A DNA stretch of 64,000 nucleotides from a virus. Positions 20,113 through 62,340 of the stretch are shown in pieces (within the stretch, counting starts at the first letter, position 1; each line of letters starts with the position of its first letter). The stretch is taken from IMG/VR virus record IMGVR_UViG_3300010883_026915, positions 16,015 to 80,014 of that record; one strand, written 5' to 3'. The notes under the pieces were generated by a model. The model was not told where the DNA came from. It saw only the letters and a list, made by a program, of their open reading frames with translations, and made no database searches. The translations under genes and the position numbers were made by a program.

Positions 20113-23100
20113 ATGAAAAAACGAATAGTTTCAAAATCAAAAAGACCTTCTCTATTTAAAAATGAAAAATCAATAAATAAACTGACTTCAAAAAAAGAAA
20201 TAAGTCTTTCTAGTATGATGGATACAAATATACAGTCAGATGAATCATTTAGATATGATTCTTATTCAGAAGCTATAAAAAACACACAACAGCTTAACAT
20301 TGACTATACAAAATTCAAAAATCATACATTTTTCAATTCTGCGCAAGCAAAGACAAATATTGCAATATCTAAAATAATTAATGAGTATCCGTTTGATCAA
20401 AATAAAAAATCAATAGAGTCATTTTTTGATTCACTTACTGGATTTGAAAATTATGTTTTTAACATATTTCCAAAATATACTGGCTATTTACATTTTTCAG
20501 GAACAGTCTCTGGTGAACCAGCTAGTAATGGAACAATATTAGAAATATTTGATTCAAGCGGCTATAAGTTCCCACAATTCTCTACAAAAAATGATGGAAA
20601 TGCAGAGATAGATTTCGAATATAATCCGATCACAGTAGAGTTTCAAACATATATACCGGATCAGGTAAATGAAAATCAAATAATTATTCAAAAACAAAAA
20701 GAAGCAGGCTTCGGAGTAAATATTGCACTAAGCAGAAGCCTTGATACTTCAAGATGTAATATTATATGGTCTGTTGTTTCTGGTGGCATACACACATCTG
20801 TATCAAGTAGTATAGAAAAGGGAAAATGGGTTAATGTAGGTTGTATATATGATAGGGGAAATGAAAACAATCTGCACTTATTTTTTGACGGTGAGCTTCA
20901 AGGAACTTCTTCAAATAAAGCAGAGTTTAGTATACTTTCTTTTGACAAGTCTCCGCTTTATATTGGGACCGGATCTATATTCAATATTGATTCAAGATTT
21001 CAAAAAGGAGGAGAATCTACATTTTCACCTCAGGTATCTCTTTCTGGAAATTTAGATGAAGTTAGAGTGTTCCATGATGTTAGAACTGCAGATGAGCTAA
21101 AAGAGTTTAGACAAAAGAGTATCTTTCCTGAGCCAAACCTAGTATGCTATTTAAAGTTTAATGAACCATCGGGAAGCTATAAGGGAAATAAAATTATATT
21201 AGACTCTTCTGGAAACTCAAATCATGCTTTAATTCAAAACTTTACTAGTGAGCTAAGATTTACAGGATCACTTAGCTCGCCCTTGCTATTTGAAAAGAAA
21301 AACCTAACCCCGATTTTATTTCCTGATCACTACCTTGTTAAAGATCTAAATACAAAAATGCTTATATCAGCATCTAGGTATGACGAGATAAATCCAAATC
21401 TTATAACAAGATTAATACCAAAGCACTTTTTCGTCGAAGGTCAGGCAAATGAGGGATTTTCAACACAGGCTGGAGAAATTGTAAAAGCCATAACAGGAAA
21501 TTCAATGCCAGGATCAGCAAAGCTTGGAAGTGCGCAGCTTATGACATCATTTCTACTAGTTTATGCAAAATTCTTTGATGAATTGAAGATAGTAATTGAT
21601 AGCATTAGTAATTTTCTTAATGTAAACTATGAAAACGAAGAGACTATACCAGATCAGCTATTGCCAGCACTTGGGAGGTATTACGGAATAGATTTGCCTA
21701 GCTTGTTTACAAATGCTGATATATATCAATTTATTGATGGAGAAAGACTGGGAGAGAGCTGGGGTGCTAGTCCAAGATCACTTAGGGAATTACAAAACGC
21801 ACTCTGGAAAAGATTTTTGATAAATATTCCCTATATAACTAGATCAAAGGGAACAATAAGAAGTATAAAGTCTACATTATCATCATTTGGAATAGATCCA
21901 GATGATATTGTTAATATAAGAGAGTTTGGAGGACCTACTAAGAAGACACTAGATAATAAACGTATAAGAAAAATCAAGGCAATATCCTTTCTAGACTTTA
22001 CTGGATCTTTTGGTCATGAGAATGATACAGTTAACTATCAAGGCTACTCAAGCACATCTCCGATTTTTATTAGCAAATATCTTAGCTCTTCAAGAGTTGA
22101 ACCAGGATATCCTGAAATAAAGGGCAACTTTATAAATAAATCTAGTACAAATAGAAATGGTATATCAAATAATAAAAGTGATGGACAGCACACATCAGGA
22201 TCTTTTACATATGAAGCATATTATAGATTTCTAGAGAAGCCCAGGCTGGGTGGAAAAACACATTATGCAACACAGAGCCTAGCTAGACTTCATGTTACAG
22301 GATCACATGATGGAGTAGGTGGGGGAGCACATATTCTTAACATTCTGGCAACATCTGCTTCTATCCCTACAGAAAACAATAGATTAACTCTATTTGTTAG
22401 AGATGCCATCGACATCGCCACCCCTGGCCTAAAGATACAGATAAATGATAAAAATTTAGACCTGTTTAATGGTGAGCCCTGGTACATATCATTTGGAAAA
22501 GTCAGGTCAGATGACATCATAACTTCAGTATCAGAGAGTCTTGTTGGGTCAAAAGTTAGATCTCCGTTTTCAACGCCTAAGATTTCAACTAACATGACAT
22601 CATCATGGTTTATTAGGGCAGCAAGGTCTGCAAACGGGCGAGTTACAGAGTCTTACGTAAGTAAATCATTCTTTGCTTACGATGACCACAACCTGCTCGA
22701 AAATATCGCGCCCAGCGGTGAGACAGGCTATAATCCTAGTGGAACTTTTATAGCGATAGGCTCACAAAGCATGCCTCTTCCGACAACAATTTCACAAGAG
22801 AGATTTTTAATTAGTGATCGATCTTCTATTGAAGGATTGCCAAATTGGTCAAGTGGTGATCGAGACCTGGCAATGTCAACAAAATTCTCGGGCCAGGTTG
22901 GAAAGATAAGATTCTGGTCTTCTGCACTTGATGAAAAATCATTTAAAGATCATGTTAGAAATCCTGATTCTATAGGTTCACTAGACCCTGTAAAGAGTTA
23001 TGATTTTATAACTCAGGAAACAGGTTCTTTCCAGCGACTTAGAGTTGATCATCAGATGTCACAAGAAGTTCTCACATCTTCTGCAACAGGTGAGCTTATG

Positions 23101-31802: not shown

Positions 31803-33641
31803 ATGCCTAATAGAACACAATTAAGACTGAACCAGATTACAGGTTCAGCAGTAGAAATAAAACCCACAGCACTCACACGAGGGTCAACTGCAGCACTTCT
31901 GGTAGCTGGTGACATATCAGGATCACTATCATATCTTGCTCAAGCAATTTCAAACATCCATGGTGGCGTTGAGTTTGGTAACTCACCAATTGGACAAATT
32001 AGTATACCAGACGGGACCAATGTAGACGTTGTATTGCAAAATATGGATACTGGCCAGAAAATACTTATTGACGCTAAGGGAACAGGCGCAGCAGGAGTAG
32101 ACATATTGTCTGGTAAGTCGATGGAGATAAAAGTACCTGATGCTGATGGTGTCATTGTAATGGGTAATGTTACTAAAGATACATACTTTAAACTTGTTTC
32201 ACACGCAACCCCGGCTAATGAGCTTGTTTCAGTGGTCAACTTAGCTGGTACTGCTGTATCAGATACAGCTGCTGCAGTTCAGGTTACTTCAGCTGCCGGA
32301 GCTGTTACTTTGAATGCTGGTGTAGCTGATGCAGCTGCTGTAAGAATCTTTTCTTCAAACGCTGCAGGTGGTGTGGATATTGATGCTGGAACAGGTGGTC
32401 TTACACTTGATTCAACTGGTATAGTCTCCATTGATGCTGCCGATGACCTGAACTTGACGGTCACGTCTGGCCAAGATGGTGAAGATCTAACCATCGCACA
32501 AATCGGCGGTAATGATTCATCTATCATTATAACTGCTGCTGGTACTGGTACCGATGCTATCGACATCAATGCTACTGCTGGTGACATGCTTATCGGTAAA
32601 GCTCTGCTTGATGGAAAGACGCTTAAGCTTGGTAAGAACGCTGCTGTTGAGATGGTTTTAGCTCCTCACGGCACTCCTACTAGTGAGGTTTTCTCTGTTA
32701 CAAACACAGGTGGTACTAATGACAACTGTATTGAGCTTGACGCGGTCGCTGGTGGTATTAAGCTAGAAGCAGCCAAGTCTATCCTTTTTGAATCAGAACA
32801 AGGCGAAGATGATGCAATTCAGATTTCGGCAACTAATGCTTCAGGTGGTATTCAATTAAAGGTAAACACCAATGTGCTAATGGAAGTCGATGCTGACCAA
32901 GTGGATTTCACTTCCACTGCTGCGACAGTTAATGTTGCTGGTCAGCTTAATGCTGATGCAACTACAGTATCTACTTCTAAGACAACTGGTGCTCTTGTTG
33001 TTGACGGTGGTGCTGGTATTGCTCTTGATCTCTTCGTTGGTGATGATATCTTTCTTAAATCTGACGGAGCAGCTATCTTCCTGGGTGATGGCAATGATGT
33101 CCAGATAGCACATAATGGCTTGACTGGTCTTAATGTTTCTTCAGCTGGTCCGGCAGTAGTGTCAGGTACTTTCATCGGCCTCTCGGGAGCTATTTCATTC
33201 TCTACTGATGGTGCAATGACTTCCGACCCAGCTGGGAATATGGCTTTTGGTGCATATTCTGACTTTATTACATTTAGATCACAAGGAATATTCAGCGCTG
33301 GTACAACAGTCGTTGGTGCTCTTAATGCTCTAGCTACAGCTGCTGGCGGTGGTTTTGTTGGAAAGCAACTGATAACATCTTCTGTTGATTCACCAGATAT
33401 ATTCTCATTGCAAACCCTTCAGAATACACCAGGTTTTACAACTGAGATAGATCTTTCTGAGGCCTCACCTGCAAATACAGAGCTCTATATTAACGGTCAG
33501 CTCTTAATGTCAGGATCAGTACTTGGAGCAAATGCAGACTATCTTGTATTCGGACATCAGAAGCCAGGATTGCTCAAGTTCGCATTCGATCTCGTTCAGC
33601 ACGATGTCCTTGTTATTAAGACAACATCAGAGCAGGGATAA
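31803..33641 (+). CDS. Abundant fibre-like virion protein with internal repeats
   Basis: Strong AAGGAG RBS, GCT/ACT/GGT-biased codons, own terminator; STSKTTGALVVDGGAGIA fibre motif. Confidence 0.7.
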   Translation: MPNRTQLRLNQITGSAVEIKPTALTRGSTAALLVAGDISGSLSYLAQAISNIHGGVEFGNSPIGQISIPDGTNVDVVLQNMDTGQKILIDAKGTGAAGVDILSGKSMEIKVPDADGVIVMGNVTKDTYFKLVSHATPANELVSVVNLAGTAVSDTAAAVQVTSAAGAVTLNAGVADAAAVRIFSSNAAGGVDIDAGTGGLTLDSTGIVSIDAADDLNLTVTSGQDGEDLTIAQIGGNDSSIIITAAGTGTDAIDINATAGDMLIGKALLDGKTLKLGKNAAVEMVLAPHGTPTSEVFSVTNTGGTNDNCIELDAVAGGIKLEAAKSILFESEQGEDDAIQISATNASGGIQLKVNTNVLMEVDADQVDFTSTAATVNVAGQLNADATTVSTSKTTGALVVDGGAGIALDLFVGDDIFLKSDGAAIFLGDGNDVQIAHNGLTGLNVSSAGPAVVSGTFIGLSGAISFSTDGAMTSDPAGNMAFGAYSDFITFRSQGIFSAGTTVVGALNALATAAGGGFVGKQLITSSVDSPDIFSLQTLQNTPGFTTEIDLSEASPANTELYINGQLLMSGSVLGANADYLVFGHQKPGLLKFAFDLVQHDVLVIKTTSEQG

Positions 33642-35031: not shown

Positions 35032-36276
35032 GTGTCAGGAATTCTAGATTCAAAGAAGAGAGTTATAGATGCAGTTGTAACTCAAGAGGGTAAGCGGCAA
35101 ATATCACTAGGTGGTTTACGAGCTGTATATGCAACTGTTTCTGATAAATGTAGCTATTATGAGAAAGATATTGTAAGCGGATCCGCAGATGCAACAAAAA
35201 GAATATATTTTGAATCACCTATAGAAAATATAAATGATTCAATAACAATGGAAACAGATGACTCTGGTAAACTTCTTGGGTATCCTGTTAGAGGTGAAGC
35301 TTTTTATAATATCGACGGCGCTGTAGAGGGATTGTCCTCTATTAGTGGAACACTAGTGTTAGCTACAAATGATACAGCAACTGGCTTTGCATCTCTTGCA
35401 ACTGGAATTATAACTCAATCTCTTGATAGGTTTAGAAATCTAATGTCACTAGGCACAAGAGATTCAAATGAACCTGATAACTTAGCTACAAGGCTAAATA
35501 GAGATAACTATACGTTTACACTAACAAACAATTCACCGTTTTTTCAAGGAAAGCTAAAAGCAATAACAGATGTAGACTTTCTTGAACCACTATTTTTTGA
35601 TGAGAGATTGAGCAATGTTATAAATTTTAAATTTTTACCGCCTATAATAAAAGACTTAACAAAAAAAGAAAAGAAAGATCTAGACGTAAGAGGTAAAATT
35701 CCAAATAGGAAGAAATTTGGAAACTATACTAAGGTTAGCAGACCGTGGAAACTAACATACCAGGATATAATTAGACACTTAAATACACCGACAACAAATG
35801 ATGTAATACCTACAGGGGGAGTTCCAACTGTAATTACCCTTGAGACGCCTACCGGGTACACCATCGAGCCAGCGGAATTATTAGAAGAACCTACTGGAAG
35901 CCCAGATGCCGACGCAGACGCAGATTTCGATGCCGAAGATGATGAACCTAGTGAGCCATCACTTCCCTATGAGGCTCCTCCAAGCGAGTCTTATGATGGG
36001 TCTACTGTTCTTATAACTATGGATCAACCGTCTAGAGAAAGAGTGCCAGTTATCTTTAAGTCAACATCAAATACAAATAATTTAGTTATGCAACTTTTTG
36101 AACTTAACGAAACAGAAAATAAACTTAAAAAGCTAGACGTAATTGATTTCGGAATTGTTGAAGTCCCTAGTGATAAAAGACACCCTACAAAGCAGATATT
36201 CTTTGCAGGGAAAATATTTATAAATTCAATAAATTTACCATGTTACGTTAATTTATTTACAATTATTATGGATTAA
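35032..36276 (+). CDS. Virion protein, N-terminus paralogous to 45554-46270
   Basis: MSGILDSKKRVIDAVVTQEGKRQI versus MGFLDHSTNNVIIDAVLTDQGRKLL; internal Pro/acidic linker. Confidence 0.6.
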   Translation: MSGILDSKKRVIDAVVTQEGKRQISLGGLRAVYATVSDKCSYYEKDIVSGSADATKRIYFESPIENINDSITMETDDSGKLLGYPVRGEAFYNIDGAVEGLSSISGTLVLATNDTATGFASLATGIITQSLDRFRNLMSLGTRDSNEPDNLATRLNRDNYTFTLTNNSPFFQGKLKAITDVDFLEPLFFDERLSNVINFKFLPPIIKDLTKKEKKDLDVRGKIPNRKKFGNYTKVSRPWKLTYQDIIRHLNTPTTNDVIPTGGVPTVITLETPTGYTIEPAELLEEPTGSPDADADADFDAEDDEPSEPSLPYEAPPSESYDGSTVLITMDQPSRERVPVIFKSTSNTNNLVMQLFELNETENKLKKLDVIDFGIVEVPSDKRHPTKQIFFAGKIFINSINLPCYVNLFTIIMD

Positions 36277-39113: not shown

Positions 39114-42100
39114 ATGCCTAGAAAAACAACAGAAATACCAATTGAAGTTCATTCTTTGCCAGTTGTTGAAGAACCTGGAGCGATTACTGAAATAAAACCT
39201 TCTTCATATTCCCTGGGATCTAGTATTGTGGTCAGCGGACCAACACTTCCGTGGTCGTCTCCTGAAGATATTGATACTCTACCTCCGGGGGATCCTGTTT
39301 TCACATCAGGCGGCGGTGGTAGCAGTTATGACATGGGAAGTCTTTCAATAGATTTTAATTATGATAGCTTCTATCTAAATCCATCTCTTGAAACCATGCT
39401 AAATAGAAGAGGATTTTCAACACAGCGTGCAGAAATTTTAGGAATGTTTAATTATAAGGCACCGCTTGAATCAGGCGATCCTGCATACGGCCCTGATGCT
39501 AATTATCTAATAACTCCATATGGTGAACTATTCGACTATCAGTGTCAACTAAAGCAATTACGATATAATGATGCAATGTATTTTTTAACTACTCTTTTAG
39601 GGTTTGATTTATCACCGCAAACTCTTGGTTATATTTTAACTCCTGGATCTAGCCCAGGGCTATTTGCTAATCAAGAAGATCAGGAGATGTACTTACAAGA
39701 ATATCAAAATGAAATGTCTCTTGCAAAAGATGTTCTTGATTATTTAAGAATTATATACAATGCTGTTACAGAATTTATAAATGCACAGCAAATAATATAT
39801 GATACACACAGAATATTTTATCCAAGCGAAGATCTTAGTGCAGGCTACAGCAGCGGCGAGCTTGGAGATAGTTATCTTAATGTCTCAAATAACTTACCAT
39901 CTGTTAGTTTTGATTACAATGGTAGTCATCTGACTGGCAAACTTCCTAATATTTTTATATCTGCAGAATATCAAGGTATGAGAGATTTTTTTGAAGATTT
40001 TGGACTTGGTTACTCATGGGCTAGACATGCATCTTGTACAACACAAGTTGCTCAAATAGCAAGAATTGCTCTTTCTTCTGTAGCAGTAGAGAATTTTAAA
40101 GTACCTGGTTCTTCTTGGACACCGATCGAGACAATGTCTGATAGATTTTCTGAAAACTGGTATTCTAATAAGATAGCGGGTATTGGGTGGTACCGCGATT
40201 CAACAAATTCAGCATACGAAAAAAATGCTTTTAATGTAAGGCGAGCTAAAAGTGACGGTACAAAGATTAATTTTTGGAATATGTGCTCTGACGGTGAAGT
40301 AAGGCCGCTAGACTCTGGAGACTCTAATCGGATGAGTGAGTTGTTGGACACTTTTTCCCGAGGTGAGGCTTCATCACCTGAAGATTCACAAAGATCAAAT
40401 TTGTTATATGCATCAACAATCGACTATATACAGGGCATCTATATTAGCAGCCTAAGAGATGCTGGTCAGACACTTGGACAGTTTCCAGTAGCTTCATTGC
40501 ACCAGAATAGTATTGTAAAGAGTCTTGTAAATAAGCACTTTGGAACTGAAGCAAGTAATTTTACAGGTACCCATGGACTATTAGATAATCTACCTAGAAA
40601 TCCAAATTGCTTAATTAGATCAATTGTTGGAAAAAATAGAGATCCAGCAATAAATGATAATAGAGATGCAATTGAAAACTATACATCTTCAAACTATAAT
40701 CTTGCAAAAACAGTAACATTATCAAGAAATGGAAGATCATATTATTGCGATGAAGTTACAACAGTAGAGGTAGACGAAGTTCAGGAAAGGCTAGTAGCTT
40801 TAATGGATAGTCTAAGAATGGGCGGAGAAACACTTGGAGATTTCGCACGACTCACATGTATAGAGGGTACAGCAAGTATAAATGTAATTGATGGAGATTC
40901 ATCCACAACACTTGATATAGAGGACATTTCGCAACCAGCATACGAGTCTGGTACTGACTCTGGTTTTATCCAGCCAAGCTCTATTATGCACTTTATAGCG
41001 TTAGCTATTCAAAGAATAACCAGTGCCCATCTCGATCATAATGAGGCTGATCTCGGCGCTGACACATCATCTAATGTCGCAGTCACAACCCTATCTGGTT
41101 TCACTCCAATGCTTATTACAACATTGGCAATGGAAAGTAAGAAAATCAAAGCAAGCCTTCTCGGACTTTTAATTGCAAGGTGGAATTGGTATTATAAAGT
41201 TGGCGGCGAAGCTGGCGATCGTGATGAAGACTTGAAAAATTTGCAAGATGTCGCAAGGACACTTATGAACCAGGTCGTACATGCTGTCTATAATGATTTT
41301 TATGATCATATAGCATGGACCGTTTCCGATGACCCAGACATGGCCGGTGAAGAGAGAGTCAGTGCCTTTGACTCAGGTCGTGTTCGTCACCCAATGTGTA
41401 AATGGGGATATGCAACATCAGCTGATGATAAGAAGATAACGCAGACGAATTTTAAATACAAGCTAAATTCAGGCTGGTCAGTATATCCAAGAGGATCTAT
41501 TGGTGTGGTAGTGACCCTCGAATCCAGTGAGAGCACCGACTGGTCCAAAGCGGCGTTTAAAGATTACATCGATTTTTCTAAGTTTGGTCCACAGATTGAG
41601 TATGCACTATTTGGTAATCAGGAAGACGGAAGGTGTACAGTTCTTGAGTCTAAAAGCTGGGGCGACGATATTGATCACCTATTTTTTGATGCACCACTTA
41701 TTGCTGTTAGGGATTTTGAGACGATGGTATGTGATGCAGCAGGTGTTAGTAGGGATACTGAATATACATCTAGAAATCATTCATCTCAATCAAGGATAAT
41801 TGCTGCATTTAATTCTTGTTGCAACATATGGCATAATGGATTGAGAATGGGATTTGCTTCTAGCACAACTTCAGGCAGTAGCCACGTAATCGACACCGAA
41901 GTCCTAACAGCTGGTGGTCCCGCTCCAGAGACAGGGCTTTCAGGCCACTTCAAAAAAGTCTGGCTAGCATATAATGAAAGGGCACTTTTTAGCATGTACA
42001 ATGCATGTCAAAATTTTACAAAACATTTTCCACCATGTTATGGAGCAAGCTACTCAGACTTTCAAGTTACTGATATTAAAAATGATCCCTGGGATGTAGA

Positions 42101-43496: not shown

Positions 43497-45481
43497 TGAC
43501 AACAGCAGAAACATTTTATGAGCTATTGCAGGATGAGCTAGGCCTCACAGAGACAAATCAATACCCATCAGCACCTGTGACAACAGTTGATCTAAGAGAG
43601 CCCATAAGTGTATCATCAGATTTTTTTTATAATTACTATACACGAGATGAAAGAACAGCAGATCCTGATACAAGTGGTATAATTGATATATCACCTGAAT
43701 CTGAATCTCTTGAGATAGCAAAGAAGCGTCAAAAAGCGCCGAGATCAGCTATAATAAATATCAAAGTTCCAGCAAAGTTGCCCCCGGATAGTTCATATGT
43801 AGATGTTCAGGCAAGAAAGTTTATTATTGAAAATTATATAACTAGATTTCCAAAAAAGATAGTCTTTGAAGGTGCTGTTGCAAATACAAGATTTTCTTCT
43901 ATAATACTTCAAGATAATCAAATAGACGATACATTTTATAAGACTCTTAGTCAATCTGTTGCATTTAAAGAATCATACTCAAAAACATCAACAGCTAGTG
44001 AACTAGGAAATGTTCTTGATAGATACTTTACATCACCTATGGCATATGCTAGTGCGACGCCATCTACAATAAGAAAAGTTATGTCAAACTATCAGCCAGC
44101 AGGTGTTGCATATGCACCGACAGATGCTAGGCGAGAAGTTATAGCTGAAGCTCTTAGGGACGTAAGGTTTGTAGAATATAATTTTACTATAAACAATGCA
44201 ATTGCTCATAATGTAATACTAGGGGGTCTTGAAGATAGAGGAAATATTTATCAAGATGAACTAATAGGTGTTGAAGATGATGCAAAAGATGTTCAAAGAT
44301 TTTTTCTTTCAACGATAAATCCGGCAATAATAGATGGATCAGAATTTGAGCTTGAACTAGCTGCTATGACAGTAGAGACGAAAGGAGATATTGAATCTGC
44401 TGGATTATCTGTTGACGAAAGCTCAGTTCCTATTGGGTTGTACATCGAGAAGCACGAAATTCAGACTATGGGAGACGGATCATTTAAAACTACAAGATGT
44501 GACCCAATAGTTATTAAAGACTATGGAAACTTTAATATTTTCGACAGTCGGATAAGATACGGAGCTACTTATATATACAGGGTTAGAATTATATACTGCA
44601 CTGTTTATGAAGCTACTGCAATAGATCCAGAATCAATTACTGAATCAGAGATAGTATTTGCAACATCTATGGTTGCATCTCAAGGTATAAAAACACAAGT
44701 TATGTGTGTAGAAAATATACCGCCTGATCCTCCTAGAAATTTAAGATTTAATTATGACTTTTTTGATAATAGTCTTGACATATTTTGGGAAGAACCGACA
44801 AATCCTCAGAGAGACGTTGTAAGATATCAAATATTTAAAAGAGGATCACTTGATGTTCCATTTACACTTGTAAGAGAGCTAGATTTTGACAAATCTACAA
44901 GTAAGGTTGTACCTCTAGAGAAAGCTCCAAAGAGTAAACTAACCAAAGTGTCAGGACCAAGAAAATTTCTTAAAGATAGAACGTTCAAGAGAGAAACACC
45001 AGAAATTTATGCACTTGCCTGTGTAGATGCAAGAGGTTTAACATCATTGTACTCAGAGCAAATATTAGTTTCTTTTGATAGATATAAAAATAAAATAGAG
45101 CGTGAAAGAATTTCACCTCCAAAAGCACCAAAGCCATACCCTAATCTATATTTGAATCGTGATTTGTTCGTAGATACAATGAGATCTTCAGATGCATCAA
45201 GAATGAGAATATATTTTGATCCAGAATATTTCGATGTTCAGCAAAGTACGATGTATGAAGCAACTATAACTACATATGACGAAAAGACAGGCGCAGCCAT
45301 ACATTCTACAAAAGAATACACAGGGACATCATCTCTAGAGCTTATAAAAGCTAAATATAAGTTGCAGCTTATAAATGTAGATTTGCAAGATGCAAATATT
45401 TTTGATATAAATATTAACAACCTTACATTTGATATAACTGAGATTCCAGTAACTAGTGCAACAATTAAAACTGTATTTTAA
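43496..45481 (+). CDS. Virion protein with fibronectin type III-like domain
   Basis: IFDSRIRYGATYIYRV and PPDPPRNLRFNY...LDIFWEEP...VVRYQIFKR...YALACVDARG. Confidence 0.65.
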   Translation: MTTAETFYELLQDELGLTETNQYPSAPVTTVDLREPISVSSDFFYNYYTRDERTADPDTSGIIDISPESESLEIAKKRQKAPRSAIINIKVPAKLPPDSSYVDVQARKFIIENYITRFPKKIVFEGAVANTRFSSIILQDNQIDDTFYKTLSQSVAFKESYSKTSTASELGNVLDRYFTSPMAYASATPSTIRKVMSNYQPAGVAYAPTDARREVIAEALRDVRFVEYNFTINNAIAHNVILGGLEDRGNIYQDELIGVEDDAKDVQRFFLSTINPAIIDGSEFELELAAMTVETKGDIESAGLSVDESSVPIGLYIEKHEIQTMGDGSFKTTRCDPIVIKDYGNFNIFDSRIRYGATYIYRVRIIYCTVYEATAIDPESITESEIVFATSMVASQGIKTQVMCVENIPPDPPRNLRFNYDFFDNSLDIFWEEPTNPQRDVVRYQIFKRGSLDVPFTLVRELDFDKSTSKVVPLEKAPKSKLTKVSGPRKFLKDRTFKRETPEIYALACVDARGLTSLYSEQILVSFDRYKNKIERERISPPKAPKPYPNLYLNRDLFVDTMRSSDASRMRIYFDPEYFDVQQSTMYEATITTYDEKTGAAIHSTKEYTGTSSLELIKAKYKLQLINVDLQDANIFDININNLTFDITEIPVTSATIKTVF

Positions 45482-46284: not shown

Positions 46285-47520
46285 GTGGCAGTATTTAAAC
46301 AAATAGGACCAGGTGATATATCTACAGCCCAGTCTTTTCTAACACAATTAGTAGATGTAATTGCGTCCGATGTTTCTGGATCTACAACCTGCAGGAAGTA
46401 TCAAGTATTTGTGACTGGTGCAAACGGTCGAGGCGCAGGAGTTACCTCATCTTTGTTTCAAACAGTTTGTGATCAAGATTATACGCTACAAACTTCTAAT
46501 GAGATATTAGATATGACAGTAGGGCTTAGAGACGATTCATTGCTGGTCAAATCAGCTTCAACGGGAAAAGATACTGCTGGCAAAAAGCTTTTCCCATCTG
46601 AATCTTTGATGATGAGGGAAAAAATATCAATCTATAGTCAGTATTCTCTTCTATTACTCGGCGCGTCAGGATCTGCTTTTAAATCACCTCAGAATTCAAC
46701 TCTAGAGTCTGACAAGATTGATAATGCAATGTTTATAAGCTTTAAGCGACTATTTTCTAGAGATTCTATTAAGGAAAATAGTTTTGCACTTGAAGTTGCA
46801 TCAAGCGGATGTAAATCAGAAGGCTCTTCAGGAGCAGACTCCCGACCAAACATTAATAGAACATCAAACTCAGGTACTATGTTTAATGTATATACTGATG
46901 CAGGGTTATCGACATCAACATTGGTCAAATTTGGAGGTACATGCAGTGATATTGTCAATGCTACAAATACTGCTGAGAAAGTTGGAAATATATTCTACCA
47001 GCACGGAATAGTAGTTCTCGATATTGAAAAAGTTTTTTCAGGTAGTCAGAAGATATCAGGAACAATTGATGCTGTGACTTCTGAAGGTAATGGTAAAGTC
47101 GTCTTAGGTGCTTTGAACACGCCTGGCTCAAATAAGCAGGCAAAGCTTGTTCCAGATCTAATGGTTTCAGGATCTATAGATGATATCTTAGATTTTTACA
47201 GGACTACTAGATTTAAGTCAGGCTCTCAGACTTGTTATACCTTTATGAATCGTACAAATATTAATTCAACACTTATATGGTGTAGGGCAACAGCAGATGA
47301 ATTTAACTATTCTTCAAATCCTACTTATGTAGATCCATCAACGAATAGAATAAATGTCATAGAAGTAGGGCAAGAAAACTTTCAAAGTGCTTTTTCATAT
47401 ATAACAACCGTCGGCTTGTATGATCCAAATGATAATTTAGTTGCAATTGCAAAAATGTCTAGGCCGATTGCGAAAAACAATGAGAAGGATATTACCATTA
47501 GGGTAAGGCTCGACTTCTAG
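46285..47520 (+). CDS. Virion tail/baseplate protein
   Basis: VGNIFYQHGIVV, EFNYSSNPTY, YITTVGLYDPNDNLVAIAKMSRPIAK...IRVRLDF. Confidence 0.65.
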   Translation: MAVFKQIGPGDISTAQSFLTQLVDVIASDVSGSTTCRKYQVFVTGANGRGAGVTSSLFQTVCDQDYTLQTSNEILDMTVGLRDDSLLVKSASTGKDTAGKKLFPSESLMMREKISIYSQYSLLLLGASGSAFKSPQNSTLESDKIDNAMFISFKRLFSRDSIKENSFALEVASSGCKSEGSSGADSRPNINRTSNSGTMFNVYTDAGLSTSTLVKFGGTCSDIVNATNTAEKVGNIFYQHGIVVLDIEKVFSGSQKISGTIDAVTSEGNGKVVLGALNTPGSNKQAKLVPDLMVSGSIDDILDFYRTTRFKSGSQTCYTFMNRTNINSTLIWCRATADEFNYSSNPTYVDPSTNRINVIEVGQENFQSAFSYITTVGLYDPNDNLVAIAKMSRPIAKNNEKDITIRVRLDF

Positions 47521-47534
47521 AAAAGGGCTCAATA

Positions 47535-50096
47535 ATGGCAATAGTTAAAATACCCAAAGAAAGGGAAGAATATTTTACATTAACAACTCACCCAGATGTT
47601 ATTTATGTAAGTGGATGTAACCCATCAGTAGTCGAAGGAGCAATGTCTCTAAGGGGCAGGTCAAGCCCAATAGTAAAAGAGTATATTGCAGTCAACGCAT
47701 ACTATGAGTTGACAGATGATTGGCGAGCAGGCACAACATCAAGACCGTGGAACCTAAGCGACTTCGATATCCCAACCAGCCTGGGCACCGCCTGCTGGGA
47801 CCGCGCTGTGGCTGATTTTTACGAAACGACAGCTAATATCTCAAAATATATTAAAGTCTACATGGCTGCGGCGAACGCCGCACCTAGATCAATATCTGAT
47901 ACAAAAAATATTTATATTACAAGATTTGATACACCATTTCTTTTCAACAGCACAGCAATAAAAAAGTCAATTATTCAAAATAACTTGATGAAATTTTATG
48001 AGTCAAGATATGACTTATGCGAAATGTCATATACAAACTATCATACATTAAATTTCTTTTCAGCACCAGATGTCGCAGGTGCACCTGAAGTTGGTGAGAA
48101 TGCAAGACTCCCAGACGACAGCGCAATAATATACCAGAATTTTGGCGGCGGCAGACCTCCGGATACAAATCCATATTATGTTACTGGTGCATTTTCTATT
48201 CATTGCTATCTTAATGCAAGATACACAAATGAAAGAATCGGCAGCACTTTTAACCCATATACTGCAGGTACAATTATGCACCTGTCTTCATCATATGCTC
48301 TTTCACTGATATCAGGTAGTCGTAGAGATCAGAATGGCAACGTAAACGGATATAGGCTAATGCTACAGCTTAGCCACAGCGCAGATATTGCGCCAAGAGA
48401 TGTTAATATTAATGCAGTTGATGCTGGAACAAACTCATACCCAAATGATTTAATATTTTTAACTGAAGATAATTCAATATCTAGAAACTACTGGCATAGT
48501 GTTGCTGTAAGGTGGGGAACAAAAGAGTATAATATGGGAACAGGTAGCATTGATATTGACAGCGTTGCAATGTCTACTTTTGTAATTCCGTCTGGATCGA
48601 TATTACCTCCTGCACACATATCGCCACCTAAGGGTTTGTTTGTTGGAAATTACAGAGAGGGCCCGCCAGGGCCTAAGCAGGATGGTAAATTTTTTAATGC
48701 AAAGGCACGTATTAGGGAGGGTATTAACCCAAGTATCGATATGGGTAGTGATTCTGATAATCAAGATCCTACAACTGTTACACTTAGACACCCCTTGAAT
48801 GCTGAGATTCATGAAGTTAAAATATATGACAAGTATTTAACTAATAAAGATATAATAGATGTATCTAAAACATCACCGAAAAATTATAAAAATCTAAAGT
48901 TTTATGTTCCCCCTTTATTTACTCACGACTTTAAGAATGACATCAGGGATACACTTCTTTCACAAACTAGATTTTATCCGACTGCTTCAATACACCCTTT
49001 TAATACAATGTTCTCTTTTAATGTGGGTGGCTTTGATTTTAATCTTGAAAAACATACAATTGATAATGCAAACGGATACAAGCCAAGGCTTTATAAGTTA
49101 ACTGGCTCTGCAGATATCCCTGTGCCATCAGCAGGATTAACTGCAAACGAAGCTATGTATAGACAGGGCACGCTAAAGAAGAGAAATTTAACATGTCTTC
49201 CCTGCGATAACGGAAAATTTAAACCAGACTACCCGTCAGGTCCAGGACTCGGTCAATCTTTTAAAAAAGTAAAACGCCAAAACGGTTGTCCAGATCCAAG
49301 TATTATACCTCTAGATCCCATGGTTTCTGACAGTCATGCTCTTGCCGGGCTTCCTGTGGTGACGGCAAAAGCTCTCTGGCTGGAGTCAATGGCCTCCATG
49401 GCAGACTTTGAGGCAGAACCATCTCCGGATGATCCGTCACCAATTGTTTATGGAGTGCTTCCAGCTATGGTAGATCCTTTAGGCGTTGTTACTGGGGAAA
49501 AACCAGCATCATTTAGCTCTCCAATATTCACAATATTTCAAAAAATGAGAGATACAAGCTCTAGAGAGATTTGCTTTTTCAATATTTCAAATATATACTA
49601 TGGAAATAAAATTCTTGAAAACACTTTCTTTGTCAATGATGAAGATTTAAGCGGTTCTGATGGTAAAGTTAAAATAACACTTAGGGATAACGGAAGAGGA
49701 GGCTTGTATAGATGTGATGCAAGTACTAAGCATCCGCAATGGGCAAATATTGGAAATATTCTATACGAAGAAGGAATTGTTTTTGTAAAATCTCCAATAT
49801 TAACATTATTTGGAAAAGATAAATTTGAAACAAAGTTCAAAGGTGAGCAAAATATACACATTAAGAGTCTTAATATAAAAATTCCAGCAGGAATGATGAA
49901 TAGTTCAAGTAATCCAGGATACAAAATACTAAGTGCATCAGAAAGTCCAAGCGACATTGGAGAGAGATTTGTCTATATAGATAGTATAAACATACATGAT
50001 GAAAATCTTAATGTTATAATGAGAGGTACTCTTGCACAGCCTATAAAAAAGAGAGTTGATGACGAGATGGTTATAAGATTTAAGATGGATTTTTAA
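47535..50096 (+). CDS. Virion protein with LamG-like domain; C-terminus paralogous to 46285-47520
   Basis: YWHSVAVRW...LNAEIHEVKIY (LamG-like); IGNILYEEGIV...NSSSNPGY...YIDSINIHDENLNVIMRGTLAQPIKK...IRFKMDF. Confidence 0.65.
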   Translation: MAIVKIPKEREEYFTLTTHPDVIYVSGCNPSVVEGAMSLRGRSSPIVKEYIAVNAYYELTDDWRAGTTSRPWNLSDFDIPTSLGTACWDRAVADFYETTANISKYIKVYMAAANAAPRSISDTKNIYITRFDTPFLFNSTAIKKSIIQNNLMKFYESRYDLCEMSYTNYHTLNFFSAPDVAGAPEVGENARLPDDSAIIYQNFGGGRPPDTNPYYVTGAFSIHCYLNARYTNERIGSTFNPYTAGTIMHLSSSYALSLISGSRRDQNGNVNGYRLMLQLSHSADIAPRDVNINAVDAGTNSYPNDLIFLTEDNSISRNYWHSVAVRWGTKEYNMGTGSIDIDSVAMSTFVIPSGSILPPAHISPPKGLFVGNYREGPPGPKQDGKFFNAKARIREGINPSIDMGSDSDNQDPTTVTLRHPLNAEIHEVKIYDKYLTNKDIIDVSKTSPKNYKNLKFYVPPLFTHDFKNDIRDTLLSQTRFYPTASIHPFNTMFSFNVGGFDFNLEKHTIDNANGYKPRLYKLTGSADIPVPSAGLTANEAMYRQGTLKKRNLTCLPCDNGKFKPDYPSGPGLGQSFKKVKRQNGCPDPSIIPLDPMVSDSHALAGLPVVTAKALWLESMASMADFEAEPSPDDPSPIVYGVLPAMVDPLGVVTGEKPASFSSPIFTIFQKMRDTSSREICFFNISNIYYGNKILENTFFVNDEDLSGSDGKVKITLRDNGRGGLYRCDASTKHPQWANIGNILYEEGIVFVKSPILTLFGKDKFETKFKGEQNIHIKSLNIKIPAGMMNSSSNPGYKILSASESPSDIGERFVYIDSINIHDENLNVIMRGTLAQPIKKRVDDEMVIRFKMDF

Positions 50097-55860: not shown

Positions 55861-55862
55861 AG

Positions 55863-57494: not shown

Positions 57495-57509
57495 TAATAG
57501 GAAAAATTA

Positions 57510-59549
57510 ATGGCAGAAGAATCATCATCAGCATTGTTTAGAAGACTTACAGGATTGTTTAGAAGCGGTCCTGTTATAAAGAGAAAAGTTAGAGACTTTG
57601 AATCTACAAAGAAGACATCGTCTGCGTTCGATCTCTTTAGAAAAAATCAAAGTCATGTCTATAGCTCTGCAATGAGTGCGTATGGAACTTACGATAGAAT
57701 GGCAAGGTATAGTGACTTTAGTGAAATGGAGTATACACCTGAGATAAGTTCTGCACTTGATATATACGCAGAAGAGACAGTTGCTGCAGATGAACATGGG
57801 CAAGTTTTACACATCTATTCAGAAAATCATACTATAAAAAAACTTCTAAGTGATCTTTTTTACGATACACTTAATGTTGAATTTAATTTAACAGCCTGGT
57901 CAAGAAATCTTTGTAAGTACGGAGACTTTTTTCTTTTTAATGATGTAAGCCCAGAGCACGGAGTTATTAATACATTTCCTATTCCAGTAAATGAAATAGA
58001 GCGAGAGGAAGGATTTGATACAGAAGATCCAATGGCTGTTAGATTTAGGTGGGTTACACAGGGAAATCAGATTCTTGAAAACTGGCAAGTAACACACATG
58101 AGAGTCTTGGGGAATGATGCATTTTTACCATACGGCTCTTCTGTACTAGAGGCAGCTAGAAGAATCTGGCGCCAGCTTATACTTGTTGAAGATGCAATGC
58201 TTGTATATAGAATAGTAAGATCACCAGAGAGGAGAGTTTTCTATATTGATGTGGGAAATGTTCCACCGGAAGATATTCCAAATTATATGGAGCAAGTTCA
58301 AGCAACACTTAAAAAAGCACAAGTTGTTGATAAGACGTCTGGTAGGGTTGATTTAAGATATAATCCTTTATCTGTAGACGAAGATTATTACTTGCCAGTT
58401 AGAGGGTCTGAGACTGGAACTAAAATAGATACGCTTGCAGGAGGAACAAATGCAACGGCAATAGAAGATGTTGAATATATTCAAAAGAAACTTTTTGCAG
58501 CACTAAAAATTCCAAAAGCATATCTTGGGTATGACGAGGGCCTTGGCGCAAAGGCAACACTTTCACAAGAAGATGTAAGATTCTCAAGAACAATAGCAAG
58601 AATTCAAAGAACAGTTGTATCAGAGCTAAATAAGCTAGCAATAGTTCACTTATACTGCAACGGCTTCGAGGGAGAGGATCTATTAGATTTTAATCTTGCT
58701 CTTTCAAATCCGTCAACGATTGCACAACAGCAAAAGCTTGAGCTATTTAGAACAAGATTTGATGTTGCAACAACTGCCAACAATATAGAAGGCTTAGTTA
58801 GTAGAGACTGGATAAGAAAGAAACTATTTAATATGACAAATGATGAAATAAGTGTAGTAACTGAGCAGAGGGAGTATGATAGGCTTGAAGACCTTAGGGT
58901 CGAGTCAGTTACACTTCCAGAGTCAGAATCTGATGGCGAACCGCCTGAAAGTGACGATGATGATATTGATGTACCAGAGACTCCGACAGACTTAGCTGAT
59001 TCTGATAATTTTAACAAGTTATCACTTCCAATACTAACAGAACCAGATATAAAAATAATGTCGCTAAATGATGAGCATTCACCAGTTAAGGCACAAGCTG
59101 CAGTTGATAGAGTTGCAAATAATCTTTCAGAGAAAAGCAAACACAAGAAGTCTGAAGATAAAAGATATAAGAATACATTAAGAACTAAAAATAGTCCATT
59201 TTCAGATCCAAAAGGGAAGATGGCTAGCCATTCTGCAGATGATAATGATGATTCACTCGGTGATTTATCAAAACATCAGAGGTACAAAAGATCGTCAGAG
59301 CAAAAGGAGGATGCAAACCCAGCAGCAGCAATATCTAGAGAGCTAAGAAATGCAAGTAAAATGCCTTCAATATTTGAAGCTGACGCAGATTTTGAAAAAT
59401 CTTTTATTGAAGAAAAGGCTAAAAGACAAAATAGATTGAATAACAGACTAAGATATACATTAAAATCTCTTGAAAGAAACATACATATAAAAAAGCCATC
59501 AACGCTTTTATCTGAAGAAAATAATCCAAAAGAAGAAAAAGAGGTATAA
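57510..59549 (+). CDS. Portal protein (T4 gp20-like) with long C-terminal extension
   Basis: PEISSALDIY, QLILVEDAMLVYRIVRSPERRVFYIDVGN, EDYYLPVR, IDTLAGG, IEDVEYIQKKLFAALKIPK. Confidence 0.95.
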   Translation: MAEESSSALFRRLTGLFRSGPVIKRKVRDFESTKKTSSAFDLFRKNQSHVYSSAMSAYGTYDRMARYSDFSEMEYTPEISSALDIYAEETVAADEHGQVLHIYSENHTIKKLLSDLFYDTLNVEFNLTAWSRNLCKYGDFFLFNDVSPEHGVINTFPIPVNEIEREEGFDTEDPMAVRFRWVTQGNQILENWQVTHMRVLGNDAFLPYGSSVLEAARRIWRQLILVEDAMLVYRIVRSPERRVFYIDVGNVPPEDIPNYMEQVQATLKKAQVVDKTSGRVDLRYNPLSVDEDYYLPVRGSETGTKIDTLAGGTNATAIEDVEYIQKKLFAALKIPKAYLGYDEGLGAKATLSQEDVRFSRTIARIQRTVVSELNKLAIVHLYCNGFEGEDLLDFNLALSNPSTIAQQQKLELFRTRFDVATTANNIEGLVSRDWIRKKLFNMTNDEISVVTEQREYDRLEDLRVESVTLPESESDGEPPESDDDDIDVPETPTDLADSDNFNKLSLPILTEPDIKIMSLNDEHSPVKAQAAVDRVANNLSEKSKHKKSEDKRYKNTLRTKNSPFSDPKGKMASHSADDNDDSLGDLSKHQRYKRSSEQKEDANPAAAISRELRNASKMPSIFEADADFEKSFIEEKAKRQNRLNNRLRYTLKSLERNIHIKKPSTLLSEENNPKEEKEV

Positions 59550-59552
59550 ATC

Positions 59553-61740: not shown

Positions 61741-62340
61741 ATGCCTTCAGTAACACAAACAATATTAGACCCGGGAACACCAAAGGGTAATAATCTTGGG
61801 ACAACACTTGGTTCGAGAAATGATTCAACTTTAAAAAATAATTATCCAAATAGCCCAATCTATCTTGGAACATATGAAGATGATGAGAGGAGAGAAATTT
61901 ATATGACTTTATTGGCAAGTGAAAATGTTGTAGCTGAGGTGACCAGCGCGACCTACAGTACAACCCTCCCTATGGGTACAGAGGGTCTTGGAGTGTCATC
62001 CTTTAGCACAAAATACACTGGGGGAGCTCTCGACGAGCGACCTCCAAACTTTGCTGAAATGGCACTGGATACAGATTCGTTTGGCGGCGGCGGCGGTCAG
62101 GCAACAACTCCGTATATTCCTCCCTTGGGATCCACAGATACTGGCGACGAAACAGGTCTTGCTGCATGGACAGGCGCAGCCACAGACTTGCCCGCGGGCG
62201 GCGATCAATATGGATCAGGGCATAATGCTCCAGCAAGCCCATCTGACACATCAGCAAAGATGGATAGTGCTGAATCGACAGATTCTGGCACAATAGGAAG
62301 CTATATAAAGGGAAGATCTTACGCAGGATCAGCAGGATAA
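61741..62340 (+). CDS. Hypothetical Gly/Ser/Thr-rich protein (probable virion component)
   Basis: 199-aa ORF coupled to its neighbours in the head module. Confidence 0.65.
   Translation: MPSVTQTILDPGTPKGNNLGTTLGSRNDSTLKNNYPNSPIYLGTYEDDERREIYMTLLASENVVAEVTSATYSTTLPMGTEGLGVSSFSTKYTGGALDERPPNFAEMALDTDSFGGGGGQATTPYIPPLGSTDTGDETGLAAWTGAATDLPAGGDQYGSGHNAPASPSDTSAKMDSAESTDSGTIGSYIKGRSYAGSAG

What the first reader, a model, noticed from the sequence alone, without database searches (positions are those of the whole stretch)
47721..47880. Short in-frame GC3-rich islets are scattered through virion genes: candidate micro-patch diversification mechanism
Seen: 47721-47810 is 62% GC (47771-47810 is 75%) against 23% at 47941-48000 in the same gene. 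It includes ten consecutive G/C-ending codons (ACC AGC CTG GGC ACC GCC TGC TGG GAC CGC) in a genome that strongly prefers A/T-ending codons. Similar sharply bounded islets: 15219-15230, 15750-15770 (GCC AAC ATC ACC CCC GCC ACC), 22405-22422 (GCC ATC GAC ATC GCC ACC), ~22680-22725, 35851-35868, 41511-41555, ~41200-41390, ~41880-41950, ~49340-49440, 61936-61956. The bias is at synonymous positions, so amino-acid composition does not explain it. I saw nothing comparable in primase, SbcCD or protease. Inference: 15-150-nt pieces of coding DNA from a high-GC donor (host genes or GC-rich relatives) are repeatedly written in frame into variable loops of structural proteins. No RT or template repeat is visible, so this is not a classical DGR. 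The Cas4-like, RuvC-like and SbcCD nucleases are possible participants.
Basis: partly seen in the sequence, partly recalled or inferred. Interest (0 to 1): 0.78.

Follow-up and report, generated by a model that had tools for sequence, protein, structure and literature searches.

The report
GC-rich codon patches in phage tail genes
An AT-rich, uncultured marine T4-like phage really does carry short patches of G/C-ending codons, mostly in its baseplate and fibre genes, but they look like scattered scars of ordinary recombination and repair with mixed causes, not a new diversity-generating machine.

Summary
G/C-ending codons cluster far beyond synonymous-codon shuffling: 14 high-scoring segments against 2.2 expected. 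They also exceed a first-order Markov null. Phage T4 structural genes with the same GC3 show no excess. Thirteen of the 14 segments lie in virion genes (P=0.002).

The set is heterogeneous:
- Some islets sit in invariant protein segments.
- One covers the translation start region of the next gene.
- Several are Pro-Ala-Thr low-complexity inserts.
- Eleven of 17 lie within five codons of an indel relative to the nearest syntenic relative (P=0.03).

The focal islet is lineage-specific. Only 1 of 40 AT-rich homologues has any significant islet, and at a different position. It lies in the least conserved part of the protein. It holds both amino-acid differences seen among three population variants.

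No donor, reverse transcriptase, template repeat, shared motif or RNA structure was found.

My best reading (about 0.4) is sporadic short-tract recombinational patching with GC-richer DNA that has not yet decayed to the genome's composition. An in-situ GC-biased process is a serious rival. A dedicated "micro-patch writer" is unsupported. Interest is modest.

The parts
47745..47810 (+). Focal GC3-rich patch: 22 codons, 18 of them G/C-ending, 65% GC, residues 71-92 of the 853-aa protein
   Evidence: Score 15.1, per-gene P<0.002. Homologues show no GC3 rise at the aligned positions. It contains the polymorphic residue D/Y89 at nt 47799 and W72, where 12 of the 14 homologues that carry this segment have Phe.
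47856..47879 (+). Second small patch in the same gene: 8 codons, 7 of them G/C-ending, one being the invariant ATG (Met)
   Evidence: Score 6.2. It contains the polymorphic residue V/I108 at nt 47856 and A113, where 54 of 61 homologues have Val.
47535..50096 (+). Host gene: an 853-aa protein with a ConA-like (laminin-G) jelly-roll domain, in the baseplate/fibre block
   Evidence: 681 or more homologues, the nearest 51-53% identical, some carrying Pfam Laminin_G_3. The only confident part of the model (residues ~210-350 and 420-460) matches lectin and pentraxin folds. It is syntenic with G001.
41505..41555 (+). Second-strongest islet, inside a broad GC3-raised and poorly conserved zone (~40900-41950) of the 1460-aa gene at 39114-43496
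   Evidence: Score 10.2. Gene-wide GC3 dispersion z=4.2. GC3 against identity to G001 gives rho=-0.34. An indel is adjacent.
35836..35874 (+). Islet inside a Pro/Thr/acidic low-complexity insertion that is absent from G001
   Evidence: Score 8.9, per-gene P=0.004. The segment is unaligned to G001. For the gene, rho=-0.51.
22678..22728 (+). Islet over a 4-residue insertion in the 1225-aa Laminin_G_3 protein
   Evidence: Score 9.0. Identity to G001 is 0.18 against a gene mean of 0.53, the 3rd percentile.
22405..22440 (+). Islet in the same gene, close to an indel
   Evidence: Score 7.6. An indel lies within 5 codons.
15204..15230 (+). Pro-Ala-Thr insert islet in gene 14403-15866
   Evidence: A 5-residue insertion relative to G001. 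The codon unit CCN GCC ACN recurs here and at 15744-15782.
15546..15578 (+). Islet over a 6-residue insertion in the same gene
15744..15782 (+). Pro-Ala-Thr low-complexity islet in the same gene
   Evidence: Score 8.9, GC12 0.65.
61936..61968 (+). Islet in the hypervariable 199-aa head-module gene; it holds the polymorphic residue T/A75 at nt 61963
   Evidence: Score 8.8. Polymorphism. An indel is adjacent.
62173..62202 (+). Gly/Ala-rich islet (80% GC) in the same gene, next to a 13-residue deletion relative to G001
32439..32471 (+). Islet in the 612-aa gene at 31803-33641
   Evidence: Score 8.8, per-gene P=0.15. Not compared with G001 because the orthologue aligns only in parts.
47461..47517 (+). 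A different kind of islet: the conserved C-terminus of the upstream gene, overlapping the translation start region of the focal gene
   Evidence: 89% amino-acid identity to G001, and G001 is also GC3-rich here at 0.53. AGG/GGG-rich sequence lies 15-40 nt before the ATG at 47535.
58647..58676 (+). A different kind of islet: synonymous C-ending codons in an invariant portal segment, partly shared with the closest relative L096
   Evidence: 100% amino-acid identity to G001. L096 shares CAC, TAC, TTC and GAG. Score 7.5, per-gene P=0.044.
8345..8386 (+). A different kind of islet: a nucleotide-conserved stretch in an epimerase gene
   Evidence: About 52 of 54 nt are identical to G001 over an 18-codon stretch overlapping the islet (about 8327-8380). 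In the islet itself, third-base identity at identical residues is 0.75, against 0.59 for the whole gene.
44435..44455 (+). Run of 7 G/C-ending codons in a fairly conserved segment
   Evidence: Score 8.6, per-gene P=0.004. 71% identity to G001, with no indel nearby.

Best explanation
The islets are a mixed population, not one system.

The core of the signal consists of lineage-specific compositional patches in the fastest-evolving parts of baseplate, fibre and head-accessory genes. These are the focal patch at 47745-47810 with 47856-47879, plus 41505-41555, 35836-35874, 22678-22728, the inserts in 14403-15866, and 61936-62202.

I read these as footprints of sporadic short-tract recombinational repair: gene conversion or templated replacement over tens to about 150 nt, often leaving a small indel. 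The ordinary T4-type recombination machinery would do this, copying from GC-richer DNA met during co-infection. Relatives of this phage group span GC3 0.20 to 0.79. Because synonymous sites decay only slowly towards the genome's AT-rich equilibrium (GC3 about 0.22, intergenic GC 25%), recent patches still stand out, most strongly at third codon positions. They persist mainly where the protein tolerates or benefits from change. That would explain their bias towards virion genes, variable segments and polymorphic sites.

The remaining islets have unrelated causes:
- overlap with the next gene's translation start region (47461-47517);
- a nucleotide-conserved stretch (8345-8386);
- reuse of one codon unit in Pro-Ala-Thr low-complexity inserts;
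- shared ancestry plus chance (portal, 58647-58676).

Shown: the excess, its distribution, its lineage specificity, and its association with indels and polymorphisms. Inferred: the import by recombination. No donor was identified.
For: - The clustering is real and absent from T4 at the same GC3. The window has 14 segments against 2.2 expected; T4 has 1 against 1.35.
- Thirteen of 14 segments lie in virion genes, P=0.002.
- The focal GC3 rise is absent at aligned positions in 45 AT-rich homologues. Only 1 of 40 homologues has any significant islet. This points to a rare event in one lineage rather than a conserved functional element.
- In structural genes GC3 rises where identity to the syntenic relative G001 falls: rho=-0.10, P=3e-4 overall; -0.34 and -0.51 in two genes. 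G001 shows no rise at the same places.
- Eleven of 17 islets lie within 5 codons of an indel, against 7.0 expected, P=0.026.
- Composition is shifted at all three codon positions. In the focal patch GC12 is 0.57 and GC3 is 0.82, the profile expected of DNA from a genome of about 60-65% GC.
- GC-richer relatives exist. Homologues of the focal gene reach GC3 0.79. The closest relative over the terminase-portal region (L096, 79% nucleotide identity) is 39.6% GC.
- The patch is present in three independently assembled population variants, so it is not an assembly artefact.
Against: - No donor was found. Residues 56-120 and 56-122 match nothing but their own cluster in two very large protein searches.
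- Exact 24-mers from two islets are absent from prokaryote genomes, and the focal one also from IMG/VR.
- No sampled homologue is locally closer in the patch than expected, and local similarity does not track GC3.
- Every sampled homologue that has the segment homologous to residues 66-82 is AT-rich, with GC3 0.20-0.32.
- Inside the patches two conserved residues are replaced in the GC-increasing direction: Phe to Trp at 72, and Val to Ala at 113. This fits an in-situ GC-biased force at least as well as import.
- Across all islets taken together, association with low identity is not significant: Kolmogorov-Smirnov P=0.34.
- The rise in GC12 is borderline, P=0.067.
Confidence: 0.4

Rival explanations
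1. In-situ, recombination-associated GC-biased fixation (like GC-biased gene conversion). Heteroduplex repair at local recombination hot spots in the variable parts of tail genes favours G/C alleles. W-to-S changes then accumulate at synonymous and tolerated non-synonymous sites, with no GC-rich donor needed.
For: - No donor exists in any database searched.
- All homologues carrying the homologous segment are AT-rich.
- Conserved Phe72 and Val113 are replaced by Trp (TGG) and Ala (GCG), the kind of mildly deleterious W-to-S change such a process produces.
- All three amino-acid polymorphisms in islets involve a G against A/T difference.
- The invariant portal segment carries purely synonymous T-to-C changes.
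- Relatives show a weaker general excess of GC3 clusters: 21 against 11.7 expected.
Against: - It needs more than a dozen fixations within 66 nt while the flanks stay at background, which is a very sharp and long-lived hot spot.
- Thirty-nine of 40 homologues show nothing comparable in this gene.
- To my knowledge GC-biased repair has not been demonstrated for T4-type phages.
- The direction of the polymorphisms is unknown.
Confidence: 0.2
2. Local selection on the nucleic acid or on decoding. The patch would be kept GC-rich for a function of its own, such as translation pacing, an mRNA structure, a protein-binding or DNA site, or an overlapping reading frame.
For: - One islet (47461-47517) does overlap a translation start region and is GC3-rich in G001 too.
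- In G001, clusters of C-ending two-fold codons pile up in the gene at G001 64199-66208, just downstream of the orthologue of the window's last gene, as translational selection on an abundant late protein would predict.
- In enzyme genes GC3 correlates positively with conservation, rho=+0.16.
Against: - The focal patch is not conserved in position among homologues.
- It lies in the least conserved protein segment.
- Its predicted RNA fold is unremarkable, z=-1.4.
- There is no Rfam match.
- The islets share no motif beyond chance.
- Alternative-frame ORFs in GC-rich DNA are an expected by-product of having fewer stop codons.
Confidence: 0.12
3. No common cause. The excess is a statistical tail made up of unrelated small effects: low-complexity inserts built by slippage, shared ancestry, regulatory overlaps and chance.
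For: - The islets are demonstrably heterogeneous.
- Most are individually marginal, with per-gene P of 0.004-0.15.
- The CCN-GCC-ACN unit recurs in the inserts of one gene.
Against: - The focal patch alone is far outside the null: score 15.1, and a run of 10 at P=0.006-0.012.
- The collective excess is six-fold, whereas T4 shows none.
- The enrichments in virion genes, near indels and at polymorphic sites are each significant.
Confidence: 0.15
4. One reading: a dedicated mechanism repeatedly writes 15-150-nt pieces of high-GC donor DNA in frame into variable loops of virion proteins, perhaps using the Cas4-like, RuvC-like or SbcCD nucleases.
For: The islets are real, are biased towards virion genes, and are partly linked to indels and polymorphism.
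Against: - There is no donor, no template repeat and no reverse transcriptase in the 80-kb contig.
- There is no shared boundary or motif.
- It is not recurrent in 40 homologues.
- Population variants keep the patch intact and differ only at single residues.
- Several islets lie in invariant segments.
- The nucleases named are standard T4-type recombination and repair genes.
- Being 'in frame' follows from synonymous sites being the freest to drift.
Confidence: 0.04

Closest known systems
Mosaicism of T4-like phage tail-fibre and baseplate genes by homologous or homeologous recombination. This includes motif-mediated segment swapping in T-even gp37/gp38 adhesins (Tétart, Desplats and Krisch, 1998; cited from memory).
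   Same: Variation is concentrated in host-recognition genes. Short segments are exchanged between co-infecting relatives by the phage's own recombination system. The result is a patchwork within single genes.
   Different: No donor or alternative haplotype was seen here. No conserved flanking motifs (such as the glycine-rich motifs of gp38) are shared by the islets. The patches were detected by composition alone and are shorter than the usual modules.
Host recognition cluster, or hypervariable island, of pelagimyophages and cyanomyophages (Zaragoza-Solas et al. 2020, PMC7029224)
   Same: The same kind of phage: a marine T4-like phage of 33-35% GC, with a large variable region holding fibre genes and glycosyltransferases. 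The paper describes a patchwork of conserved modules and hypervariable regions.
   Different: That work concerns gene-content variation at the kilobase scale. It does not describe sub-gene compositional patches.
GC-biased gene conversion and clustered W-to-S substitutions. This is established in eukaryotes and was proposed for bacteria (Lassalle et al. 2015; cited from memory).
   Same: Short tracts with a GC excess that is strongest at synonymous sites, sometimes overriding purifying selection, and linked to recombination.
   Different: It has never been shown in phages. The substitution direction could not be polarised here. One gene in one lineage is affected.
Diversity-generating retroelements (DGRs)
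   Same: Targeted variation of a short stretch in a phage receptor-binding protein.
   Different: No reverse transcriptase and no template repeat. Both A and T are depleted, rather than A alone. The patch is N-terminal and predicted helical, not a C-terminal C-type-lectin variable region.
Compositional amelioration of horizontally acquired DNA (Lawrence and Ochman 1997; cited from memory)
   Same: Foreign DNA keeps the donor's base composition, most visibly at third codon positions, until mutation bias erases it.
   Different: The concept is usually applied to whole genes or islands, not to tracts of 20-150 nt inside a gene.

Membership tests
Diversity-generating retroelement | A reverse transcriptase gene near the target | tested here: not met
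   Pfam RVT_1 (PF00078) finds nothing in the whole 80,014-bp contig at E<=0.1. The contig is a fragment (CheckV estimates about 16% completeness), so a distant reverse transcriptase cannot be excluded.
Diversity-generating retroelement | A template repeat about 75-95% identical to the variable region | tested here: not met
   The repeat search and blastn-short of 12 islets against the contig found only chance matches of 10-16 nt.
Diversity-generating retroelement | Adenine-specific substitution pattern | tested here: not met
   In the core, at 47775-47810, A and T are equally depleted: 5 and 5 of 36 nt (read).
Recombinational mosaic patch (gene conversion from a relative) | A donor or relative that is locally much more similar than it is globally | tested here: not met
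   Local identity is no higher than global identity for all 61 homologues with DNA. No match was found in the 5.8-billion-cluster or 1.84-billion-representative protein searches. Exact 24-mers are absent.
Recombinational mosaic patch (gene conversion from a relative) | A compositional shift at all codon positions, specific to the lineage | tested here: met
   The focal patch has GC12 0.57 and GC3 0.82. Homologues show no rise at the aligned sites. Over all 14 islets the GC12 rise is borderline, P=0.067.
Recombinational mosaic patch (gene conversion from a relative) | Block haplotypes segregating in the population | not testable with these tools
GC-biased gene conversion | An excess of W-to-S over S-to-W changes on the lineage's own branch within the tract | tested here: inconclusive
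   The nearest relative is only about 50% identical, so changes cannot be polarised. Phe72Trp and Val113Ala are suggestive.
Translational codon optimisation | Preferred codons at conserved sites or in abundant proteins, conserved in position among relatives | tested here: not met
   The focal patch is in the least conserved segment and is not positionally conserved. A pattern of this kind does appear in head-module genes of G001, next to the orthologue of the window's last gene.
T-even gp38-type motif-mediated segment shuffling | Conserved short motifs flanking the hypervariable segments | tested here: not met
   No 6- to 8-mer is shared by the islets beyond codon-shuffled expectation.

The most novel reading that the evidence does not exclude
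Marine T4-like phages may have a recombination-linked, GC-biased short-patch process. It could be in-situ biased repair or repeated templated rewriting. It would act preferentially on host-recognition genes and create GC-rich, fast-evolving micro-patches that are hot spots of amino-acid polymorphism. That would be a retroelement-independent route to local hypervariation.
Probability: 0.1. Interest if true: 0.7.

Novelty: new member of a known kind. Interest (0 to 1): 0.3.

Why it matters
If the patches are recombination scars, scanning for compositional micro-patches is a cheap way to map very short, recent exchange tracts in the host-recognition genes of uncultured phages. Alignment-based methods fail there because close relatives are lacking. 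If the patches instead arise in place, they would be the first sign of GC-biased repair shaping phage receptor-binding genes. Either way the present evidence concerns one lineage and a handful of patches, so the practical weight is modest.

Tried and rejected
- **Assembly artefact.** Rejected. The same patch is encoded by three independently assembled proteins.
- **Amino-acid composition.** Rejected. The synonymous-shuffle null keeps every residue in place.
- **General short-range autocorrelation of GC3.** Rejected by the Markov null. Run lengths are geometric up to 5 codons and then show a heavy tail.
- **A generic property of AT-rich T4-like phages.** Rejected by the T4 control. Relatives show only about a two-fold excess.
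- **DGR.** Rejected.
- **Structured RNA or a known RNA family.** No support.
- **A shared sequence motif or Chi-like site in the islets.** None found.
- **Host-gene donor.** The left part of the focal patch is homologous to the family, and exact 24-mers are absent from 185,579 prokaryote genomes.
- **GC-rich family member as donor.** No local similarity was found, and the sampled GC-rich members lack the segment.
- **Closer relatives.** The search for related loci with the whole focal protein and with its most variable stretch found no relative in IMG/VR. The single metagenome scan returned only 55% and 78% partial relatives that do not cover the islet. The portal search found 87-89% relatives, but on contigs too short to reach the focal gene.
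- **Mapping onto structure.** The AlphaFold model is poor (mean pLDDT 41.7). It places the patches in two helices at pLDDT about 60, so nothing firm can be said about loops.
Full report
**Context.**
- The window is the last 64 kb of a single 80,014-bp viral contig.
- It is 34% GC, and all genes are on the + strand.
- It carries a T4-type portal, large terminase, prohead protease, primase and a fused SbcCD.
- It also has a 14-kb block of sugar-pathway and glycosyltransferase genes, and a long run of large unannotated proteins between a weak gp25-like hit and the primase.
- A 160-kb IMG/VR contig, G001, is syntenic across the whole window at 30-87% amino-acid identity.
- This is the genome type described as pelagimyophage or cyanomyophage-like, with a hypervariable host recognition cluster (PMC7029224). 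Earlier notes of this scan pointed me to that paper.

- The ten consecutive G/C-ending codons begin at 47775 in the frame of the 853-aa gene at 47535-50096.
- Shuffling synonymous codons within each gene keeps the protein and each gene's codon counts. Against that null, runs of 6 or more are 11 against 2.3 expected, runs of 7 or more are 5 against 0.56, and a run of 10 has P=0.006.
- A scan statistic gives 14 segments of score 7.5 or more against 2.2 expected, and 9 against about 1 at 8.5 or more.
- Run lengths decay geometrically up to 5 codons and then show a heavy tail. A first-order Markov model also fails to explain this: runs of 6 or more are 11 against 3.2, P=6e-4.
- The same test on 11,043 codons of phage T4 structural genes, at the same GC3 of 0.236, gives no excess: 1 against 1.35.
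- Relatives of the window's phage show a weaker excess, about two-fold. In G001 it sits largely in C-ending two-fold codons of head-module genes next to the orthologue of the window's last gene, which looks like ordinary translational selection.

**Distribution.**
- Thirteen of the 14 strong segments lie in the virion-gene share of the contig, which is 53% of codons. P=0.002, counting the upstream 16 kb, which has none.
- Inside islets the third base is C in 48% of codons and G in 29%, against 10% and 12% elsewhere.
- Thr, Ala and Pro are enriched. First and second positions are somewhat GC-richer: 0.50 against 0.455 for random segments of the same genes, P=0.067.

**The islets are not one thing.** Pairwise alignment to G001 separates them as follows.
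- *Conserved-protein islets.* In the epimerase, an 18-codon stretch overlapping the 8345-8386 islet is about 52 of 54 nt identical between the two phages. 47461-47517 is the conserved C-terminus of the upstream gene, lying over the ribosome-binding region of the focal gene, and G001 is GC3-rich there too. The portal segment 58647-58676 is invariant in protein, and half of its C-ending codons are shared with the closest relative L096. 44435-44455 also belongs here.
- *Variable or indel-linked islets.* Three lie in 14403-15866; two of these (15204-15230 and 15744-15782) repeat a CCN-GCC-ACN (Pro-Ala-Thr) unit. Three lie in 20113-23790. 35836-35874 is inside a low-complexity insertion absent from G001. 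The others are 39843-39860, 41505-41555, and two in the hypervariable 199-aa gene at 61741-62340.

Over all 17 islets, identity to G001 is not significantly low (Kolmogorov-Smirnov P=0.34). Proximity to indels is raised: 11 against 7.0 expected, P=0.026. In structural genes as a class, GC3 falls as identity rises (rho=-0.10, P=3e-4). This is strong in 39114-43496 (-0.34) and 35032-36276 (-0.51). Enzyme genes show the opposite sign, +0.16.

**The focal patch.**
- The 853-aa protein belongs to a large family: 681 or more members, the nearest 51-53% identical.
- It has a ConA-like jelly-roll domain. Some homologues carry Pfam Laminin_G_3, and the only confident part of the model matches lectin and pentraxin folds.
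- Residues 55-125 are the least conserved part of the alignment.
- The first seven codons of the patch still encode the family motif R-P-x-N-x-x-D-F, so this is not an unrelated host insert.
- The core, 47769-47810, keeps little more than one Leu. It includes a two-residue insertion (Trp88-Asp89) that nearly all homologues lack.
- Forty-five AT-rich homologues show no GC3 rise at the aligned positions, with a ratio of 0.90-0.93. Only 1 of 40 has any significant islet, and it is elsewhere. The patch is therefore a one-off in this lineage.
- Two conserved residues are replaced in the GC-increasing direction. Phe72 becomes Trp (TGG), and Val113 becomes Ala (GCG).

**Population variants.**
- The 90% cluster of the focal protein holds three sequences from different assemblies. 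They differ only at residue 89 (Asp/Tyr, nt 47799) and residue 108 (Val/Ile, nt 47856). Both are inside the two patches.
- I added five further proteins that have a near-identical variant, out of ten looked up. Three of the six amino-acid differences then fall in islets, which make up 3.3% of the residues compared (P=7e-4).
- The variants keep the rest of each patch unchanged. What is seen is point variation, not block replacement.

**Search for a mechanism or a donor.**
- No reverse transcriptase in the contig.
- No template repeat.
- No Rfam family.
- No unusual RNA fold, z=-1.4.
- No motif shared by the islets.
- Residues 56-120 match only their own cluster among 5.8 billion protein clusters. 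Residues 56-122 match nothing among 1.84 billion representatives read exhaustively by HMMER.
- Exact 24-mers from two islets are absent from 185,579 prokaryote genomes, and the focal one is also absent from IMG/VR.
- Among 61 homologues with DNA, none is locally closer than globally, and local similarity does not track GC3.
- All homologues possessing the segment are AT-rich.
- GC-richer relatives do exist. The family reaches GC3 0.79. The closest terminase-portal relative, L096, is 39.6% GC at 79% nucleotide identity.

**Interpretation.**
- A conserved functional element and translational optimisation are unlikely for the focal patch. It is lineage-specific and lies in the least constrained segment.
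- An assembly artefact is excluded.
- Two recombination-linked readings remain.
  - *Import.* A short tract is imported from GC-richer DNA and has not yet ameliorated. This best explains a sharp, block-like patch shifted at all codon positions, the indel association, and the one-off occurrence.
  - *In-situ GC-biased fixation.* This best explains the missing donor and the GC-increasing replacements at conserved residues.
- I put them at about 0.40 and 0.20. A further 0.15 goes to "no common cause" and 0.12 to local selection.
They would be needed under any recombination model.

**Limits.**
- The nearest relative with DNA across the focal gene is only about 50% identical, so substitutions cannot be polarised.
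- The polymorphism result rests on six differences.
- The virion status of the focal gene rests on synteny and a lectin-type domain, not on a named structural homologue. There was no PDB sequence match.

Noticed in passing
window 8327-8380: In the NAD-dependent epimerase gene, an 18-codon stretch is about 52 of 54 nt identical to the G001 orthologue, although third-base identity averages 0.59 across the gene. This suggests either a recent exchange between the two lineages or a nucleotide-level constraint.
   Followed up: partly
window 14403-15866 (15204-15230 and 15744-15782): The codon unit CCN-GCC-ACN (Pro-Ala-Thr) recurs four times in two inserts about 540 nt apart. It looks like duplication or slippage of a short GC-rich unit inside a high-GC1/GC2 protein of unknown function.
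   Followed up: partly
window 61741-62340: This 199-aa, Gly/Ala-rich gene (GC2 0.57) sits between the prohead protease and the last gene of the window. It is hypervariable: flanking genes align at the nucleotide level to relatives L104 and L127, but this gene does not, and it is only 31% identical to its G001 counterpart.
   Followed up: no
whole window: enzyme genes against structural genes: Within-gene GC3 correlates positively with conservation in enzyme genes (rho=+0.16; +0.6 in 8051-8944 and 9630-10481). It correlates negatively in structural genes (rho=-0.10). The opposite signs suggest that different forces act on codon choice in the two classes.
   Followed up: partly
L096 (IMGVR_UViG_3300030333_008067), against window 55528-59622: This is the closest relative found for any part of the window: 79% nucleotide identity and 88% portal identity. 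It is clearly GC-richer (39.6% GC, portal GC3 0.33 against 0.21). Near relatives of differing base composition therefore do exist.
   Followed up: partly
window 41527-41799: A 90-aa alternative-frame ORF lies inside the 1460-aa gene, exactly over the GC-raised zone. It is most likely a by-product of fewer stop codons in GC-rich DNA.
   Followed up: no
window 35820-35995: The 414-aa protein carries a Pro/Thr-rich and then strongly acidic low-complexity linker of about 50 residues (the Asp-Ala repeat region). It is missing from the G001 orthologue.
   Followed up: no
G000 and G001 records: CheckV completeness estimates of 16% for the 80-kb contig and 58% for the 160-kb relative imply expected genome sizes of roughly 280-500 kb. 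That is larger than the published pelagimyophages (about 100-165 kb in PMC7029224).
   Followed up: no
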